From IMG/VR virus record IMGVR_UViG_2778261182_000005: a stretch of DNA of 7,543 nucleotides, one strand, 5' to 3'. This document shows, one piece after another, positions 1-5,626 of the stretch; the first letter of the stretch is position 1, and every line of letters starts with the position of its first letter. Origin of the DNA: a virus. Taxonomy: Duplodnaviria > Heunggongvirae > Uroviricota > Caudoviricetes. The notes beneath the pieces were generated by a model, which was not told the origin of the DNA, made no database searches, and was given only the letters and a program-made list of their open reading frames with translations. The translations under genes were made by a program, and so were the position numbers.

Positions 1-61
<61 letters not shown>

Positions 62-64
62 ATA

Positions 65-139
65 TGGTGCCGACTACCGGAATCGAACCTCGCACTCTCA
101 ACTTAAAGGGTTGACGCTCTTTCCTGATGAGCTAGTGGC
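65..139 (-). tRNA. tRNA-like element, probably a degenerate or pseudo-tRNA (tRNA-Thr-like 3' end, anticodon loop CCUUUAA)
   Basis: Reverse complement is GCCACTAGCTCATCAGGAAAGAGCGTCAACCCTTTAAGTTGAGAGTGCGAGGTTCGATTCCGGTAGTCGGCACCA, 75 nt, flanked by 3-nt spacers to its neighbours. It has a D-arm-like GCTC...GAGC and an anticodon stem TCAAC/GTTGA, but position 33 is C, the T-stem does not pair, and the acceptor stem has a mismatch or bulge. The 3' 24 nt match the 3' end of an E. coli thrW-type tRNA-Thr as I recall it. Confidence 0.45.
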
Positions 140-142
140 GGT

Positions 143-218
143 TGGTGGCCCTTGCTGGATTTGAACCAGCGACCTGGCGATTATGAGTCGCTCGCTCTCA
201 CCACTGAGCTAAAGGGCC
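143..218 (-). tRNA. tRNA with CAU anticodon, tRNA-Ile2 (lysidine type, ileX/ileZ-like) rather than elongator Met
   Basis: Reverse complement is GGCCCTTTAGCTCAGTGGTGAGAGCGAGCGACTCATAATCGCCAGGTCGCTGGTTCAAATCCAGCAAGGGCCACCA, 76 nt with a canonical cloverleaf and encoded CCA. Anticodon loop is ACTCATAAT. Near-identical in layout to E. coli ileX from memory. Confidence 0.85.
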
Positions 219-340: not shown

Positions 341-1060
341 TTAACGAACTCTGACTACATTAATTTCAAAGTCATCAATCTGCCCGCTATTAAGTATAAC
401 GAATGCAGAACTCCCATTACTGTACGATTTCGATAAAACCAGACGATCATCATAGCGTGCAAGAACGTAATACCAAGTATTCTCATAGTGGATCGTCTGA
501 TATTCCCTCTTAAACTGGGGTTTATACCAACCGGCAATAAGAGAGAATGTCCAGAAATAAATCATGAATCCAGCCATAATAAACTCAATTCGGTGATGGC
601 GAATAAAAGACACTTCCGAAAAACATTTGACTGAAATAAGTCTTCTTCCTGACCTGACAAAAAGCGTAATTGTAAAGGCAGCAATAACACAAAAAAACAG
701 CACATCTGGCTCAACGTGCTGATGAATTACCGAAAACTCCAGAACAGGCGGAATAAAAAGCAGCAATATTGCCAGAAAAAGTCTGATAAAACTCAAATTC
801 TGTATATTGTTTTTTTGTTTTATGCCTAAAAAGAAAACAATACCTACTCCCCATCCAGTAAGGAATATAACGATAACGCTCACAGCATAAAACAAACTTC
901 GGGCCACATCATCAACGCCAGCCCCGACGATCCACCATGGAAAGCCATAGTAAAAGGAAGTCCCCCATCCATAGAAATAAGCGCTTCCCCATCCAAGACA
1001 GCCCATATAAGCAATAAAAAGTGAAGAGTTCCTCAGCAGAGTGCTGTCATCCATACCCAT
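341..1060 (-). CDS. Multi-pass integral membrane protein of unknown function (about 5 predicted TM helices plus a roughly 60-aa C-terminal soluble tail); late-operon moron
   Basis: ORF of 239 aa with ATG at 1060 (alternative ATG at 1054 with GAGAG upstream) and TAA at 343-341. Hydrophobic stretches include LFIAYMGCLGWGSAYFYGWG, SLFYAVSVIVIFLTGWGVGIVFFLGI, LFLAILLLFIPPVLEF, VLFFCVIAAFTITLFV and IEFIMAGFMIYFWTFSLIAGW. A sampled stretch (601-660) is about 35 percent GC versus about 52 percent in the nin genes. No family recognised. Confidence 0.6.
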   Translation of the reverse strand: MGMDDSTLLRNSSLFIAYMGCLGWGSAYFYGWGTSFYYGFPWWIVGAGVDDVARSLFYAVSVIVIFLTGWGVGIVFFLGIKQKNNIQNLSFIRLFLAILLLFIPPVLEFSVIHQHVEPDVLFFCVIAAFTITLFVRSGRRLISVKCFSEVSFIRHHRIEFIMAGFMIYFWTFSLIAGWYKPQFKREYQTIHYENTWYYVLARYDDRLVLSKSYSNGSSAFVILNSGQIDDFEINVVRVR

Positions 1061-1190
1061 CTCTCTAACAATTTTAAAACATCAACTCACCTTACATAAC
1101 AAAGGAGATTCCATGCAGTCAAGAGACTTCAGAGCAGGAGAAACTCATTGCGCAATCGCCATCACGTTTAACGTTATGCACCGCTTTCCA

Positions 1191-1221
1191 GATATAAAAA
1201 ACCCGCTCGATGGCGGGCTGT
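1191..1221 (-). terminator. Rho-independent terminator, tR'-like (end of a short 6S-like late leader RNA)
   Basis: On the minus strand a GC hairpin (CCCGC...GCGGG, plus-strand 1202-1217) is followed by T6 then ATATC (plus-strand A-run 1196-1201). The GGGTTTTTTATATCTG motif resembles the lambda tR' 3' end recalled from memory. Confidence 0.6.
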
Positions 1222-1261: not shown

Positions 1262-1299
1262 GAGCAAATTTACCACAGATTCGGGAAAAATCAACAACA
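1262..1299 (-). promoter_or_regulatory. Late promoter pR'-like with qut-like initial transcribed region (Q loading site)
   Basis: Minus strand reads TTGATT - 16 nt - TGG TAAATT TGCTCTAATGATGGGCG. The -10 TAAATT (plus 1267-1272) is preceded by TG, and the -35-like TTGATT is at plus 1289-1294. The segment GGTAAATTTG...TAATGATGGG parallels lambda pR' GGTAAATTTGACTCAACGATGGG as recalled. It sits directly downstream of the Q stop codon. Confidence 0.55.
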
Positions 1300-2121
1300 C
1301 TATCGCGTTACCCTCTTTAACTGCCGCTCCGCCCATGCCTCTTCAATGTCAAACCGAACCACCAACGTATCGTAAAAGCGTTTCACTGATTTTTTCCACG
1401 TATCAAGCGTGATAGCACTCGTCACTTTGCGTATGGCATTAAATGCCTCCGTTGACGGTAATCTTTCATAGCCACGACCGCCACAACGCTGGCAGTCCCT
1501 GATAACAGGCGTCCCCCGTTTTTCTGACTCTTCACGATGAATGGCTACACCACGCCCACGGCAGTCTTTACAGGCAGTGGAAATCTCTCCCTTCCCTTTA
1601 CATTCAGGACAGGAAACTTTCACCACCTCCCTAACTTTTTTCCATTCTTCCCAGTAAGACGGATACACACCTTTTGTGCACTTTGCCCATACTGGCGGCT
1701 TGCCATCCGGATACTGAACCTTGTTTGTAAAAACTTCGCTTTCAATAAATTTTTCCCCATGGCAACAAGGGCACTGTTTTTTACTCGCTGCGCTGCGGGC
1801 ATAATCCTCAAAAGCGTACGAAGCCATAATGCGCATCACTGCCGGCTTTATTTCTGCCGGAAGCTTTCTTAACGCCGCCACGCGATCGCACTGACTTAAT
1901 GCATAATCTGCCAGTAATTCTGTTGCCCGCACCCTGTCATTCATACTAATGCCCATTTTCCCCAGGAACGCAGAAAACCCCATCTCAGCCCGGTTTTGTG
2001 TCATACCCTGCGCAGCCATCACATCAGTGATGCTCAGCGCATCTTTTGACGTCGAGGCGGATGCATCAGTCAGGCCTGGCGATTTTGGGGAATAGTATTT
2101 CGGTAAATCTTCCAGTTTCAT
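1300..2121 (-). CDS. Late-gene antitermination protein Q (long, phage 82/YdfT-like type with DnaJ-like CxxCxGxG zinc-finger repeats)
   Basis: ORF of 273 aa. Repeated CxxC motifs (CPCCHGEK, CPECKGKGE, CKDCRGRG, CQRCGGRGY). Position is immediately upstream of a lambda-like pR'/tR' and downstream of rusA. The ATG at 2121-2119 overlaps the rusA TGA (ATGA coupling). Confidence 0.75.
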   Translation of the reverse strand: MKLEDLPKYYSPKSPGLTDASASTSKDALSITDVMAAQGMTQNRAEMGFSAFLGKMGISMNDRVRATELLADYALSQCDRVAALRKLPAEIKPAVMRIMASYAFEDYARSAASKKQCPCCHGEKFIESEVFTNKVQYPDGKPPVWAKCTKGVYPSYWEEWKKVREVVKVSCPECKGKGEISTACKDCRGRGVAIHREESEKRGTPVIRDCQRCGGRGYERLPSTEAFNAIRKVTSAITLDTWKKSVKRFYDTLVVRFDIEEAWAERQLKRVTR

Positions 2122-3931: not shown

Positions 3932-4351
3932 TTAAGCTGAGCCCGGCGAATACCAGGGGAAATAAATATCGCTTAACGACGTGTGTTTGAGAACAGAGTC
4001 CACCGCCAATTTTAACGTCAACGACATGAAATTCTCAAAATACCATGAATTTTTCACAAAGAATTTTTCATCGATCAACTCTCCATTCATGATATCAAAG
4101 TCCGTAATCAGCTCCATCTTTAGCTCAAAAGAGGGTTCTTCATCCTCGGCAAGCCCCCCATCTCTATCGGGATACCCTTTTATCGATGGCGAAAACCCAA
4201 TCCGGAACCAACAGGTACCATCATCATCACGCCCCGAAGAAAATTTAACTTCCTCGATCGAGACCTTAAAAAAACCTCCATCATCACTAGTGTTATCCTT
4301 GAAACTACTGGAAACAATATCGAAACCAGCATACTTAATATTTTGTAACAT
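3932..4351 (-). CDS. Acidic hypothetical protein (139 aa from the coupled ATG; 144 aa from ATG 4366), third gene of the hicAB cassette
   Basis: ATG at 4351-4349 overlaps the hicB TGA (4353-4351) as TGATG. Strongly acidic (many D/E, few K/R) with one Cys. A sampled stretch (4021-4080) is about 28 percent GC. No family recognised. Confidence 0.6.
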   Translation of the reverse strand: MLQNIKYAGFDIVSSSFKDNTSDDGGFFKVSIEEVKFSSGRDDDGTCWFRIGFSPSIKGYPDRDGGLAEDEEPSFELKMELITDFDIMNGELIDEKFFVKNSWYFENFMSLTLKLAVDSVLKHTSLSDIYFPWYSPGSA

Positions 4352-4827
4352 CAGTGACGCATCCATCGCTCACCAGCCTCTTTCTTTTTTGTTCTTGCTG
4401 AAGGGGAAATGACGTAACCAAAAGAGAATGCTTTTTCCCAAACGAGCGTATCTGCCGTTTCTTCGCTTTCCGAATGAGAATAAACTTCTTTTTTGTCTGC
4501 AATCTTTTCTTCGATAGCTTTACGCACATAATCATTAAGCGTCGTCTTATCCGCCATTGCAGCCAAAAACGCTTTCTTATGAAGATCGCGACCAATTCTG
4601 ATGTTAAAAGTACCACTCATTGGTTTATCAGGAGATTTCCCTAACTGTTTGCATGTGTCGAGATAATCTGTAACAGCTTCTTCAAAAGCCGCCCTTAACC
4701 CACCCAGTGTTTCCGCTTCGTAGGTTACGACATCGTTTACGCACTGAATTTTCCCATGAAGTATGTTATCTTCAAGTGAAACCTCAATGCTGCCAAAATA
4801 ACCTTTATAACTCAGCACATTACTCAT
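4351..4827 (-). CDS. hicB: HicB-family antitoxin (UPF0150/RNase H-like N-domain plus RHH DNA-binding domain) with a roughly 45-aa C-terminal extension
   Basis: The N-terminus MSNVLSYKGYFGSIEVSLEDNILHGKI...TYEAETLGGLRAAFEEAVTDYLDTCKQLGKSPDKPMSGTFNIRIGRDLHKKAFLAAMADKTTLNDYVRKAIEE matches the HicB-like antitoxin pattern. Start taken as ATG 4827 (MSNV..., 158 aa); the track's ATG at 4842 adds 5 residues. Overlaps the hicA stop. Confidence 0.8.
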   Translation of the reverse strand: MSNVLSYKGYFGSIEVSLEDNILHGKIQCVNDVVTYEAETLGGLRAAFEEAVTDYLDTCKQLGKSPDKPMSGTFNIRIGRDLHKKAFLAAMADKTTLNDYVRKAIEEKIADKKEVYSHSESEETADTLVWEKAFSFGYVISPSARTKKKEAGERWMRH

Positions 4828-5296: not shown

Positions 5297-5452
5297 TTAC
5301 TCCTCAGGTTCGTAAGCTGTGAAGACAGCGACCTCCGTCTGGCCGGTTCGGATTCGTACCTCGCAGAGGTCTTTCCTCGTTACCAGTGCCGTCACTATGA
5401 CGGTTAAACAGATGACGATCAGGGCGATTAACATCGCCTTTTGCTGCTTCAT
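5297..5452 (-). CDS. hokD: Hok/Gef-family type I toxin (51 aa membrane peptide), HokD/RelF-like
   Basis: Hand translation gives MKQQKAMLIALIVICLTVIVTALVTRKDLCEVRIRTGQTEVAVFTAYEPEE, matching Hok family and HokD/RelF as recalled. SD AAGGAG lies 8 nt upstream of the ATG. Not in the ORF track because it is under 60 aa. Confidence 0.9.
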   Translation of the reverse strand: MKQQKAMLIALIVICLTVIVTALVTRKDLCEVRIRTGQTEVAVFTAYEPEE

Positions 5453-5508
5453 AGCCTGCTTCTCCTTGACCTTTCGGTCCGTAAGAGGCTAATCTCTATG
5501 TGTCGCAT
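5449..5508 (-). CDS. mok-like leader ORF (19 codons) whose stop overlaps the hok start (ATGA)
   Basis: ATG at 5508-5506 (MRHIEISLLRTERSRRSRL) ends in TGA at 5451-5449, overlapping the hok ATG at 5452-5450. A GAGG SD lies upstream. The leader sequence is homologous to the plasmid R1 hok/mok leader as recalled (ATAGCCTCTTAC, AAGGAGAAG). Confidence 0.5.
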   Translation of the reverse strand: MRHIEISLLRTERSRRSRL

Positions 5509-5570
5509 AGATATGGCCTCAGATTAATGTTAAGCGTCTTGCCGGACGCGTAATGTTAACTGGGGCTTTT
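5500..5570 (+). ncRNA. Predicted Sok-like antisense RNA (approximate limits) complementary to the mok translation initiation region
   Basis: Inferred from hok/sok architecture. A plus-strand TTGACC (5466-5471) with a weak -10 (5489-5495) would start transcription just before the mok start and SD complement. A small hairpin GCGTC-ttgccg-GACGC lies at 5534-5549. The ends are not determined. Confidence 0.3.
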
Positions 5571-5626
5571 CTCTATCTGCCGTTGGTGTTCATGCCCGAG
5601 GCAGATAGCCTCAAGCACCCGCAGCA

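What the first reader, a model, noticed from the sequence alone, without database searches (positions are those of the whole stretch)
341..1060. AT-rich multi-pass membrane protein as the first gene of the late operon
A 239-aa protein with about five TM helices and a small C-terminal soluble domain sits between tR' and the tRNA array, in the slot where lambdoid phages carry morons such as toxin or virulence cargo in Stx-type phages. Its composition differs from the flanking genes and no family was recognised. Candidate roles are superinfection exclusion, abortive infection or envelope modification.
Basis: partly seen in the sequence, partly recalled or inferred. Interest (0 to 1): 0.6.

Follow-up and report, generated by a model that had tools for sequence, protein, structure and literature searches.

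The report
Conserved prophage membrane protein, function unknown
The gene is real and encodes an inner-membrane protein of an already catalogued but uncharacterised family (Pfam TfpB, NCBI "STM1630 family") that sits just after the late-gene switch of many gut-bacterial prophages, often beside toxin genes, and nobody yet knows what it does.

Summary
Window 341-1060, on the minus strand, is an intact AT-rich ORF (39.5% GC against 51% for its neighbours). Its likely start is M3 at 1054, giving 237 aa. It lies 140 nt downstream of a tR'-like terminator that follows an antiterminator Q gene, and upstream of tRNA genes.

"No family recognised" is out of date. All close homologues carry the Pfam tag PF27470 (TfpB). 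PGAP calls a 90%-identical copy "STM1630 family protein", and PHROG 1521 matches at 1e-86.

The family has three branches:
- copies in lambdoid prophages and on virulence plasmids of Enterobacteriaceae, including phage 434, EDL933, Shigella pINV, ETEC Ent plasmids and Salmonella STM1630;
- a Klebsiella/Enterobacter branch;
- a Moraxella/Pasteurellaceae/Neisseria branch that includes tfpB in the Moraxella pilin-inversion segment.

The gene is under purifying selection (dN/dS 0.05-0.2). It is intact in 79 of 80 prophage loci, follows four different Q families and carries a conserved promoter-like element. In several loci it lies beside Shiga, LT or pertussis-like toxin genes.

The model has five TM helices, N-terminus in, and a periplasmic SH3-like beta domain. 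No catalytic residues are conserved and no relative was found by sequence or by fold.

My best reading is a self-promoted "moron" that encodes a non-enzymatic envelope protein serving the bacterial host. The mechanism is inferred, not shown. This is a member of a known uncharacterised family and is of moderate interest.

The parts
341..1054 (-). CDS of the TfpB/STM1630-family inner-membrane protein, 237 aa from M3. The ORF as listed runs to an upstream in-frame ATG at 1060, giving 239 aa.
   Evidence: The ORF is intact, homologues are 44-100% identical, dN/dS is 0.05-0.2, and the model shows 5 TM helices plus a C-terminal beta domain.
1061..1065 (-). Shine-Dalgarno-like GAGAG, 6 nt upstream of the M3 ATG and directly abutting the M1 ATG.
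   Evidence: Read from the sequence. Homologue N-termini align to M3.
1093..1122 (-). Promoter-like element of the gene itself: TTGACT (1122-1117), an 18-nt spacer containing TG at 1101-1100, then TATGTA (1098-1093).
   Evidence: It is conserved in prophage copies that follow different Q genes. It is also conserved in the ETEC Ent plasmid copy, where homology to the window begins at the -35 hexamer. A loose form of the motif is present in 75 of 80 prophage loci. It falls below the threshold of the promoter scan, so function is inferred, not shown.
1190..1219 (-). tR'-like intrinsic terminator: hairpin AGCCCGCCATCGAGCGGGTT followed by a T-run.
   Evidence: The hairpin is conserved in L028, L029 and phage 434, where it is annotated as a terminator.
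1267..1294 (-). Candidate late promoter PR': TTGATT, 16 nt (with TG), then TAAATT, just downstream of the Q stop codon.
   Evidence: Read. It was not called by the scan (8 of 12 matches), so this is inference only.
1300..2121 (-). Antiterminator Q gene (PF03589 with a DnaJ-type zinc-finger motif).
   Evidence: 1.5e-49. Annotated 'antitermination protein' in strain O18.
143..218 (-). tRNA with CAT anticodon (annotated tRNA-Ile in RefSeq), the first tRNA downstream of the ORF.
66..141 (-). Chimeric tRNA-like element: the 5' part of tRNA-Lys(TTT) fused to the 3' part of tRNA-Thr by a 78-nt deletion.
   Evidence: Alignment to strain O18. Not called by ARAGORN or by Rfam at gathering score.
1..64 (-). 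5' part of tRNA-Gly(TCC), cut off by the window end.

Best explanation
The ORF is an intact member of the TfpB / STM1630 family (Pfam PF27470). It is a moron lodged immediately downstream of Q, PR' and tR' in a lambdoid prophage of ExPEC-type E. coli.

It encodes a polytopic inner-membrane protein with the N-terminus in the cytoplasm and five TM helices. TM1 is a highly conserved aromatic helix with a glycine-zipper pattern (A-Y-x-Y-G-W-G ... Y-Y-G-F-P-W-W), followed by a conserved acidic periplasmic loop. The last ~55 residues form an SH3-like beta domain in the periplasm.

No charged or nucleophilic residue is conserved across the family. I therefore infer that it works by binding, meaning that it packs against or gates another envelope component, and not by catalysis.

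I infer two routes of transcription. One is from its own extended-minus-10 sigma-70-like promoter at 1122-1093 in the lysogen, probably H-NS-silenced and conditionally induced as reported for STM1630. The other is Q-modified read-through from PR' after induction.

Its most likely role is a lysogenic-conversion or host-adaptation function at the cell envelope or surface, not a step of phage morphogenesis or lysis.

Shown here: gene reality, family membership, selection, genomic contexts, and the predicted topology and architecture. Inferred: promoter activity, the non-enzymatic binding mode, and the host-benefit role. The molecular partner is unknown.
For: Family and reality:
- Homologues are 44-100% identical and all carry the PF27470 tag.
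- A profile of the enterobacterial group reaches the Moraxella/Pasteurellaceae/Neisseria group at 1e-41 to 1e-17.
- Moraxella bovis and M. lacunata copies sit in the piv-pilin inversion segment.
- The STM1630 deletion-primer arms translate to NSSMLLAYLGGLGWG and KMLVGKSVNDGRT, matching both ends of the family.

Selection:
- dN/dS is 0.05-0.2 overall and about 0.07-0.10 in the N-terminal 85 residues. This includes the plasmid copies.
- 79 of 80 prophage loci have an intact ORF.

Moron behaviour:
- GC is 39.5% against 51% for the flank.
- The gene follows Q genes of PF03589, PF06323, PF06530 and DUF1133 types.
- Downstream neighbours vary.
- The promoter-like element is conserved, and homology to the Ent plasmid copy starts at its -35 hexamer.

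Host-side function:
- Intact copies are kept without any phage late genes on Shigella/EIEC pINV (cluster of 999 member sequences), on the ETEC Ent plasmid beside eltAB and stb, next to lpxR in C. rodentium, in Klebsiella beside TPS, DsbA and STb genes, and among housekeeping genes in Pasteurellaceae.
- For STM1630 the literature reports its own promoter, H-NS binding, expression in SPI-2-inducing medium and in macrophages, attenuation of mutants in calves and chickens, and increased intramacrophage replication of the 4/74 deletion mutant (PMC6785131 S1 text). It is co-regulated with the SPI-2/PhoP virulence regulon (PMC2639726).

Architecture:
- AlphaFold2 model with pLDDT 78.8.
- The positive-inside pattern is the same in all three branches.
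- A paired Cys occurs in the C-terminal domain of four sequences of the third branch, which fits a periplasmic location.
- The only residues conserved family-wide are A15, A25, Y26, Y28, G31, G37, P39, P102, F167, G175 and Y195.
Against: - No experiment on this protein or any prophage copy was found in the literature.
- STM1630 phenotypes are weak or inconsistent. Hypermotility seen in a screen (PMC4219756) is not among the phenotypes confirmed with clean deletions (PMC4534456). There is no growth defect in LB.
- The promoter-like element has a poor -10 hexamer and failed the generic scan. In the Stx1e-type locus L103 it is absent and the gene directly follows stxB.
- Strict placement 211-283 nt after Q in 67 of 80 loci could equally mean that late, lytic-phase expression is what matters.
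- The 80 loci are the best-scoring of 187, so the intactness figure is biased upward. Broken copies do exist: E. coli 536, an IS1 insertion in strain KE51, the PHROG half-gene families, and truncated Moraxella lacunata and M. equi copies.
- The structure model is of moderate confidence, and the topology is predicted, not measured.
Confidence: 0.5

Rival explanations
1. Superinfection exclusion or another envelope-level anti-phage function. The membrane protein would block DNA entry or receptor use by incoming phages, either in the lysogen or late in infection.
For: - It is an inner-membrane protein with a periplasmic domain, encoded as prophage cargo with foreign composition.
- Known exclusion proteins such as P22 SieA, T4 Imm and HK97 gp15 are small membrane proteins without enzymatic motifs (my own knowledge).
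- The Klebsiella-branch copy lies in a cargo region that also holds umuDC and, in one strain, a reverse-transcriptase gene.
- There is a weak PADLOC AbiC hit.
Against: - The AbiC hit is 14.8 bits, covers TM helices only and appears in 3 of 55 members. No other defence model matches.
- Copies are retained under purifying selection beside virulence genes on plasmids and in chromosomes, and as single genes among housekeeping genes in Pasteurellaceae and Neisseria.
- STM1630 is regulated with the intracellular virulence regulon. None of these contexts is typical of defence genes.
- No phage-resistance phenotype was found in the literature.
Confidence: 0.17
2. A late lytic-cycle function, such as modulating lysis timing, membrane integrity, or the release of periplasmic cargo such as AB5 toxins. 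It would be expressed as the first gene of the Q-dependent late transcript.
For: - It is invariably the first ORF after Q and tR' in prophage copies, 211-283 nt from Q irrespective of Q family.
- It is adjacent to Stx-like, LT-II-like, pertussis-like and LT-I toxin genes in several loci.
- In L103 it follows stxB without the promoter-like element.
Against: - It is absent from most lambdoid phages: only 3 of 50,697 phage records match by tblastn.
- It is separated from the holin and endolysin genes by variable cargo.
- Most copies have no toxin neighbour; only 6 of 80 do.
- Intact copies persist where there are no lysis genes at all.
- At 237 aa with five TM helices it does not resemble holins, antiholins or spanins.
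Confidence: 0.15
3. A surface-appendage accessory protein. It would act like the pilin accessory proteins TfpY/FimB, binding the TM segments of pilins or pseudopilins (or flagellar components) and tuning assembly.
For: - The family's name-giving member lies inside the Moraxella pilin-inversion segment. It is co-oriented with, and downstream of, one of the two pilin 3' cassettes, so it would be co-transcribed with only one pilin type.
- The M. lacunata assembly holds both orientations (L014 and L015).
- TfpY-like proteins have N-terminal TM helices plus a periplasmic beta-rich domain, are non-enzymatic and bind pilins (PMC11841053). This is an analogous architecture.
- The STM1630 deletion was hypermotile in a screen.
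Against: - TfpY-like proteins have three TM helices, not five, and no sequence link was seen. No Pfam family is shared by family members.
- tfpB is truncated in M. lacunata and M. equi and fragmentary in M. oblonga.
- Pasteurellaceae and Neisseria copies are not next to pilin genes.
- E. coli and Salmonella Typhimurium do not normally assemble type IVa pili (my own knowledge).
- The motility phenotype is not among those confirmed with clean deletions.
Confidence: 0.1
4. A decaying passenger gene with no current function, carried along by recombination in the Q-S region.
For: Broken copies exist: the E. coli 536 pseudogene, an IS1 insertion, the PHROG half-gene families, many truncated Avibacterium and Moraxella copies, and a silenced STM1630 promoter in ST313.
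Against: - dN/dS is 0.05-0.2 with saturated synonymous divergence.
- 79 of 80 prophage ORFs are intact.
- Motif conservation spans three bacterial orders.
Confidence: 0.05

Closest known systems
STM1630 of Salmonella Typhimurium (NCBI 'STM1630 family protein')
   Same: - The length is the same (238 aa).
- The N-terminal motif (NSSMLLAYLGGLGWG against NSSLFIAYMGCLGWG) and the C-terminal domain segment match, as read from the published deletion primers.
- PGAP gives this name to a 90%-identical E. coli prophage copy.
- Both are AT-rich, horizontally acquired genes next to virulence cargo.
   Different: - STM1630 is a chromosomal gene between the effector genes steB and sseJ. It is not behind a Q gene.
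- It has a mapped promoter and is expressed in SPI-2-inducing medium and in macrophages.
TfpB of Moraxella bovis / M. lacunata (name-giver of Pfam PF27470)
   Same: - The architecture and length are the same (261 aa in M. bovis).
- It shares the AY-YGWG ... YHGYPWW motif, the F/G pair in TM5 and the YY-IL core of the beta domain.
- The enterobacterial profile detects this branch at 1e-41 to 1e-17.
   Different: - Identity to the window protein is only about 20-29%.
- It lies inside the Piv-inverted pilin segment, not in a prophage.
- It is truncated in M. lacunata and M. equi.
- Its function is also unknown. The original descriptions are recalled from memory and were not readable here.
Phage 434 CPT_434_68 'putative membrane protein' and the EDL933 prophage copy WP_001302581.1
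   Same: - They are 57% identical.
- They hold the same slot directly after Q and its terminator.
- They share the promoter-like element.
   Different: - They follow a different Q family: PF06323 in phage 434.
- They are followed by DUF3927 and NanS-p-type esterase genes instead of tRNAs.
TfpY/TfpX/TfpZ (FimB-like) pilin accessory proteins
   Same: Both are inner-membrane proteins with N-terminal TM helices and a periplasmic beta-rich C-terminal domain. Both lack enzymatic motifs. TfpY-type genes are linked to pilin genes, as Moraxella tfpB is.
   Different: TfpY-type proteins have three TM helices against five here. No sequence relationship was detected, and homology was not tested by profile-profile comparison. 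The window gene has no pilin neighbour.
Classical lambdoid morons and conversion genes in the Q-S region (stx, LT-II, bor/lom type cargo)
   Same: It holds the same slot, has foreign base composition, is present in only some phages, and may be expressed both from its own promoter and by Q read-through. It is physically adjacent to Stx-like, LT and pertussis-like toxin genes in related loci.
   Different: It is not a toxin or an outer-membrane protein. Its own activity and phenotype are unknown.

Membership tests
Pfam PF27470 TfpB / NCBI STM1630 family / PHROG 1521 | Significant sequence similarity to the family profile | tested here: met
   - PHROG 1521 matches at 1.3e-86 over 221 of 222 profile positions.
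- Every homologue, including 97%-identical proteins, carries the precomputed PF27470 tag, named TfpB.
- The PF27470 HMM itself is not in the local Pfam copy, so the window protein was not scored against it directly.
Pfam PF27470 TfpB / NCBI STM1630 family / PHROG 1521 | Homology to the name-giving proteins (Moraxella TfpB, Salmonella STM1630) | tested here: met
   - The enterobacterial profile hits the Moraxella/Neisseria/Pasteurellaceae branch at 1e-41 to 1e-17.
- Moraxella pilin-inversion loci were recovered with that branch.
- STM1630 primer arms translate to family motifs at both ends.
Pfam PF27470 TfpB / NCBI STM1630 family / PHROG 1521 | Shared architecture: about 235-260 aa, five TM helices, conserved aromatic/Gly TM1 plus loop motif, small C-terminal beta domain | tested here: met
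   Alignments A3 and A6, the AlphaFold2 model, and the same charge pattern in all three branches.
Lambdoid-phage moron | Inserted between conserved modules, dispensable, variably present, with base composition unlike its neighbours | tested here: met
   - GC is 39.5% against 51.2%.
- It is present in 1197 of 5426 E. coli genomes and in 3 of 50,697 phage records.
- It lies behind four Q families and has variable downstream genes.
Lambdoid-phage moron | Own promoter (and terminator) allowing expression from the repressed prophage | tested here: inconclusive
   - A conserved TTGACT-N18-TATGTA element with TG is present, and the homology boundary of the Ent plasmid copy falls at its -35 hexamer.
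- It falls below the generic scan threshold.
- No convincing terminator follows the ORF.
- Transcription was not measured. Only STM1630 has published promoter evidence.
Superinfection-exclusion / abortive-infection proteins (PADLOC families, AbiC) | Sequence membership in a known defence family | tested here: not met
   The only hit is AbiC at E 0.0037 and 14.8 bits, over TM helices, seen in 3 of 55 family members.
Superinfection-exclusion / abortive-infection proteins (PADLOC families, AbiC) | Confers resistance to incoming phage | not testable with these tools
   This needs plating assays.
TfpY/FimB-like pilin accessory proteins | Three N-terminal TM helices plus a periplasmic C-terminal globular domain | tested here: not met
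   The model and hydropathy give five TM helices. Only the general layout is similar.
TfpY/FimB-like pilin accessory proteins | Gene immediately downstream of the major pilin gene | tested here: not met
   The window gene follows Q and tR'. Only the Moraxella homologues are pilin-linked.
TfpY/FimB-like pilin accessory proteins | Sequence or profile homology to TfpY/FimB | not tested
   No TfpY sequence was at hand. Pfam scans of all 55 family members gave no shared family.
Holin / antiholin / spanin lysis proteins | Part of the lysis cassette, next to the endolysin; small, with 1-4 TM helices | tested here: not met
   - It has 237 aa and five TM helices.
- It is separated from the holin by tRNAs, a methyltransferase, DUF3927, NanS-p or toxin genes.
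- It also occurs without any lysis genes.

The most novel reading that the evidence does not exclude
The TfpB/STM1630 family could be a previously unrecognised class of mobile, non-enzymatic inner-membrane adaptors. Phages, virulence plasmids and pilin phase-variation cassettes would all use it to retune one conserved envelope machine of host-associated Gram-negative bacteria, for example a surface-appendage or secretion/release apparatus. In toxin-converting prophages it would then be a functional partner of the neighbouring AB5 toxin genes and not an accidental neighbour.
Probability: 0.15. Interest if true: 0.7.

Novelty: new member of a known kind. Interest (0 to 1): 0.38.

Why it matters
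The gene is common. About a fifth of complete E. coli genomes have a match, including O157:H7 prophages, phage 434, Shigella pINV, ETEC enterotoxin plasmids and Citrobacter rodentium.

It sits at the most strongly induced position of lambdoid late operons, directly beside Shiga, LT and pertussis-like toxin genes in some phages. It has a Salmonella homologue with reported in-vivo colonisation phenotypes. Despite this, it has no assigned function.

This analysis joins three separate observations in one family: Moraxella tfpB, Salmonella STM1630, and the first ORF after Q in lambdoid prophages. It also gives concrete, cheap experiments. If the protein proves to affect toxin release, surface appendages or phage exclusion, that would bear on the biology of toxin-converting phages. 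If not, it is one more conserved moron of unknown role.

Tried and rejected
- **Local family libraries.** Pfam-A gave no family for the window protein or for any of the 55 family members, and NCBIfam release 20 gave none. The family names came only from precomputed tags and RefSeq annotation.
- **PADLOC.** The AbiC hit was rejected as TM-helix noise.
- **First structure model.** The AlphaFold2 run on a shallow 26-sequence alignment was poor (pLDDT 59.8, N-terminus below 50) and was discarded in favour of the 55-sequence run.
- **'TfpB' in the literature.** Most hits are chemistry or anaesthesia acronyms, type IVb pili, or the unrelated Acinetobacter PilB-like ATPase TfpB. The original Moraxella papers are not held.
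- **Other literature searches.** No paper mentions PF27470, PHROG 1521 or the RefSeq accessions. The search for TciB and DUF3927 gave nothing useful.
- **Genome scan.** The scan with the 12-sequence alignment failed for lack of a conserved stretch. It worked with a 5-sequence subset.
- **Second word-indexed protein search.** It did not return the Moraxella/Pasteurellaceae branch even though those sequences were in the query. Their identities came from the cluster look-up.
- **STM1630 hypermotility.** I considered it as a functional clue and down-weighted it, because it is not among the phenotypes confirmed by the follow-up study.
- **Lipid A association.** lpxR or a PAP2 gene lies near the family gene in three loci. 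I judged this too thin to build on.
Full report
**1. The observation**

The window is the reverse complement of part of a lambdoid prophage. On the minus strand the gene order is hok/sok, HicA, HicB, a 144-aa protein, DUF968, RusA, antiterminator Q (PF03589, 1300-2121), then the ORF in question (341-1060), then tRNA genes.

The same arrangement, at 99.7% identity, is present in ExPEC/ST95-type chromosomes such as strains O18 and IHE3034. There the ORF is annotated 'hypothetical protein' WP_000342820.1 (237 aa), and the tRNA array Ile-Lys-Thr-Gly is followed by holin, lysozyme and terminase genes.

The ORF is far longer than chance allows. None of 5000 shuffles of the region reaches 239 stop-free codons; the shuffle maximum is 194. 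It is AT-rich, at 39.5% GC against 51.2% for the Q-RusA-DUF968 block.

The likely start is the third codon. The ATG at 1054 has a GAGAG Shine-Dalgarno sequence 6 nt upstream, all homologues begin there, and RefSeq uses it.

A terminator-like hairpin with a T-run lies at 1219-1200, 80 nt after the Q stop codon. It is conserved in related loci and is annotated as a terminator in phage 434. 'First ORF after tR'' is therefore correct.

The 'tRNA array' needs a correction. In this window only the CAT-anticodon tRNA (143-218) is intact. A 78-nt deletion has fused tRNA-Lys to tRNA-Thr, and the tRNA-Gly runs off the window.

**2. What the protein looks like**

Hydropathy gives four strongly hydrophobic segments plus an aromatic, glycine-rich N-terminal segment.

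A first AlphaFold2 run on 26 close homologues was poor (pLDDT 59.8). With 55 sequences from all three family branches the model reached pLDDT 78.8 and pTM 0.72. It shows:
- long helices at 4-36, 47-78, 89-111 (kinked at a conserved Pro), 116-138 and 155-181;
- two short helices in the 139-154 loop;
- a five-stranded beta domain at 184-235.

The positive-inside pattern is the same in all three branches:
- the loop after TM1 is acidic (net -1 to -1.8);
- the TM2-TM3 and TM4-TM5 loops are basic in the enterobacterial and Moraxella-type branches (about +2 and +3), but in the Klebsiella branch the TM4-TM5 loop is near neutral (+0.1);
- this places the N-terminus inside and the C-terminal domain in the periplasm.

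Four sequences of the Pasteurellaceae/Neisseria branch carry a Cys pair in the C-terminal domain, which fits a periplasmic location.

The only residues conserved across the whole family are A15, A25, Y26, Y28, G31, G37 and P39 (TM1 and its periplasmic end), P102, F167, G175 and Y195. None is charged or nucleophilic, so an enzyme is unlikely. TM1 carries a small-xxx-small pattern (A25, G29, S33, G37) interleaved with aromatics. This is the kind of surface that packs tightly against another helix; that reading is inference.

No solved or predicted viral structure resembles the model. No PDB sequence or other Pfam family matches the family profile or its members.

**3. Which family it belongs to**

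The local Pfam and NCBIfam copies find nothing. However, every homologue in the large protein collection carries the precomputed tag PF27470, which the context tool names 'TfpB'. PHROG 1521 (unknown function) matches at 1.3e-86. PGAP labels a 90%-identical prophage copy 'STM1630 family protein'.

An exhaustive profile search finds only 69 cluster representatives in 1.84 billion proteins, so the family is small. It has three branches.

(a) An enterobacterial branch, 44-100% identical to the window protein. It occurs in E. coli, Shigella, E. albertii, Citrobacter, Enterobacter, Cronobacter, Klebsiella, Salmonella and Yersinia.

(b) A branch about 12-18% identical, in Klebsiella, Enterobacter, Raoultella and Mangrovibacter. 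In K. pneumoniae it lies in a cargo region with SRAP, umuDC, an invertase and, in one strain, a reverse transcriptase.

(c) A branch about 20-29% identical, in Moraxella, Neisseria, Conchiformibius, Mannheimia, Aggregatibacter, Pasteurella, Glaesserella, Gallibacterium, Avibacterium and Actinobacillus.
- In M. bovis the gene lies between two inverted pilin 3' cassettes on a 1.9-kb contig.
- In M. lacunata it lies between a Piv (IS110-type) recombinase gene, a partial pilin and a complete pilin. Both orientations are present in one assembly. This is the classical tfpQ/I inversion region, which explains the Pfam name.
- In Pasteurellaceae and Neisseria the gene stands alone among housekeeping genes.

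STM1630 of Salmonella Typhimurium is a genuine member. It is 717 bp long. The homology arms of the published deletion primers translate to NSSMLLAYLGGLGWG (window: NSSLFIAYMGCLGWG) and KMLVGKSVNDGRT (window: RLVLSKSYSNGSS).

**4. Is it a functional gene?**

Pairwise Nei-Gojobori dN/dS among seven copies is 0.05-0.2. The copies came from the window, two other E. coli prophages, phage 434, the Ent plasmid, pINV and Yersinia. Synonymous sites are saturated in the distant pairs. The N-terminal 85 residues are the most constrained (about 0.07-0.10) and the middle helices the least (about 0.27-0.37).

In a scan of IMG/VR, 187 stretches encode a relative. In the 80 best, the ORF is intact in 79. This sample is biased toward intact copies.

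Broken copies do exist:
- a pseudogene in E. coli 536;
- an IS1 insertion in strain KE51;
- half-gene PHROG families;
- truncated copies in M. lacunata, M. equi and Avibacterium.

**5. Genomic context**

In 67 of the 80 prophage loci a Q gene ends 211-283 nt upstream. It is PF06323 in 46 loci and PF03589 in 21. Other loci have PF06530 (Yersinia), DUF1133 or a Q remnant. The gene therefore keeps the slot irrespective of which antiterminator family is present.

What follows the gene varies. It can be tRNAs then holin, a DNA methyltransferase, DUF3927, or a NanS-p-type esterase.

Six of the 80 loci have AB5 toxin genes next to it:
- Stx-like A and B genes downstream in L043 and L076. In L043 the protein is 100% identical to the window's, and the toxin genes start 467 nt after its stop codon.
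- A Stx1-like pair upstream in L103.
- A pertussis-like pair in L060.
- LT-II-like genes in L100 and L101.

The family gene is also kept, intact, where there is no phage:
- beside eltAB and stb on the ETEC plasmid pUMNK88_Ent;
- near spa40 on EIEC/Shigella pINV, where the protein cluster holds 999 member sequences;
- next to lpxR in the C. rodentium chromosome;
- on a Salmonella IncFII plasmid;
- beside two-partner-secretion, DsbA and STb genes in Klebsiella;
- between steB and sseJ in Salmonella.

**6. Expression signals**

Between tR' and the start codon lies TTGACT (1122-1117), an 18-nt spacer with TG at 1101-1100, and TATGTA (1098-1093).

The block CTTGAC...TTTGTTATGTAA is conserved in prophage copies behind different Q genes. 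It is also conserved in the Ent plasmid copy, whose similarity to the window begins exactly at the -35 hexamer. More distant copies keep a TTGA.../TTATG(T/A)AA pair at the same distance.

The element is below the threshold of the generic promoter scan and is absent in the Stx1e-type locus L103. Its activity is inferred, not shown.

For STM1630 the literature reports:
- a mapped promoter whose -10 box is destroyed in ST313;
- H-NS binding;
- expression in SPI-2-inducing medium and in macrophages;
- attenuation of mutants in calves and chickens;
- no growth defect in LB;
- increased intramacrophage replication of the 4/74 deletion mutant (PMC6785131 S1 text).

STM1630 also clusters with the SPI-2/PhoP-type virulence regulon (PMC2639726). 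A hypermotile phenotype seen in a screen (PMC4219756) is not among those confirmed with clean deletions (PMC4534456).

**7. Most likely mechanism and its rivals**

The best-supported reading (confidence about 0.5) is a moron: a self-contained promoter-plus-gene unit lodged in the Q-S cargo region. It encodes a non-enzymatic inner-membrane protein whose conserved TM1 and periplasmic loop, together with an SH3-like periplasmic domain, bind another envelope component. It would benefit the bacterial host in animal-associated niches, and it would additionally be over-expressed by Q read-through after induction.

Arguments for this reading:
- the gene is retained under purifying selection outside phages;
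- it is recurrently linked with virulence cargo;
- STM1630 shows matching regulation and in-vivo phenotypes;
- no catalytic residues are conserved.

Arguments against:
- there is no experiment on any prophage copy;
- the gene is strictly placed after Q;
- the -10 hexamer is weak.

The rivals are:
- superinfection exclusion (0.17): no defence-family membership, and the contexts are atypical for defence genes;
- a late lytic or toxin-release role (0.15): the position and the toxin neighbours favour it, but its rarity among phages and its phage-free copies count against it;
- a TfpY-like appendage-accessory role (0.10): the Moraxella context and the analogous layout favour it, while five TM helices instead of three, no detected homology and decayed Moraxella copies count against it;
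- a functionless passenger (0.05): contradicted by the selection analysis.

**8. Comparison with what is known, and novelty**

The protein is a member of a family that databases already list (Pfam TfpB, NCBI STM1630 family, PHROG 1521). Its exact sequence is in RefSeq. It is not a new kind of element.

What is not in the literature I could search is the link between three things: the Moraxella pilin-inversion ORF, the Salmonella virulence-regulon gene, and the first ORF after Q in lambdoid prophages, including toxin-converting ones. There is also no function for any of them.

I rate it 'new member of a known kind', with moderate interest (0.38). The gene is common and sits at a prominent, highly expressed position beside toxin genes, which makes it a reasonable experimental target. 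Nothing found here is very surprising, and no mechanism is established.

Noticed in passing
window 66-141 (-), junction near 81-88: Relative to the Ile-Lys-Thr-Gly array of strain O18, a 78-nt deletion fuses the 5' part of tRNA-Lys(TTT) to the 3' part of tRNA-Thr at their shared GGTTCGA T-arm sequence. Neither ARAGORN nor Rfam calls the chimera, so it is probably non-functional.
   Followed up: yes
window 5297-5452 (-) and 5450-5620 (-): A hok-type toxin ORF (51 aa) with a full-length sok antisense RNA match (RF01794, 101 bits) lies upstream of the HicAB pair. The prophage early-right region therefore carries two toxin-antitoxin systems within 1.3 kb.
   Followed up: partly
window 3932-4366 (-): A 144-aa acidic protein with no Pfam, NCBIfam or PADLOC match (only PHROG 19522, unknown function). 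It is AT-rich like the HicAB genes, and its start overlaps the end of hicB by 16 nt. It may be a third component or cargo of the HicAB module.
   Followed up: no
window 698-721 (-): A terminator-like hairpin (9 bp stem, then TTTTTTT) lies inside the coding sequence, at the TM3-TM4 loop codons. It may be a chance match, since 1.7 such sites are expected per 1.5 kb. I did not check whether it is conserved in homologues.
   Followed up: no
L043 5184-6412; L076 6310-7538; L103 2540-3766; L060 4783-5926; L100 4829-5971; L030 1982-3129: AB5 toxin genes of four kinds flank homologues of the membrane protein: Stx-like, an Stx1-like pair upstream of the gene, a pertussis/ArtAB-like pair, and LT-II-like and LT-I. 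L043 carries a copy 100% identical to the window protein.
   Followed up: partly
L014 and L015 (Moraxella lacunata NCTC10359), 5300-8600: The same assembly contains both orientations of the Piv-inverted pilin segment on two contigs. tfpB is co-oriented with the complete pilin gene in one orientation and convergent with it in the other, so tfpB expression would be phase-variable. tfpB is truncated at 195-197 codons in M. lacunata and M. equi, but is full length (261 aa) in M. bovis.
   Followed up: partly
L025 9510-10997 against L026/L027: In one K. pneumoniae strain a 495-aa reverse-transcriptase gene (RVT_1) is inserted between umuD and the invertase gene, 1.8 kb from the Klebsiella-branch family member. 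It is absent from otherwise identical loci. It could be a retron or group II intron RT.
   Followed up: no
L002 666-1625 (phage 434) and L033 3863-4823 (C. rodentium): The lipid A deacylase gene lpxR lies near the family gene in phage 434 and directly next to it in the C. rodentium chromosome, where it is split. A PAP2 gene lies about 4 kb away on a Salmonella plasmid (L034). This may be a weak association with lipid A remodelling cargo, or shared prophage ancestry.
   Followed up: no
L008/L009/L013 6729-6973 and L011, L012, L018: In Mannheimia one family paralogue is followed by a conserved 76-aa zinc-ribbon protein, next to dnaK-dnaJ. A second paralogue, and the Pasteurella copy, lie next to an L-lactate-dehydrogenase-like gene. 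In Aggregatibacter the gene borders a polysaccharide gene cluster (rmlB-like and sugar-transferase-like ORFs).
   Followed up: no
L015 2794-4269 (-): A 491-aa membrane protein with a sulfatase-type domain lies between a second pilin gene and piv in Moraxella. It resembles pilin phospho-form transferases (from memory) and may be a pilin-modifying enzyme.
   Followed up: no
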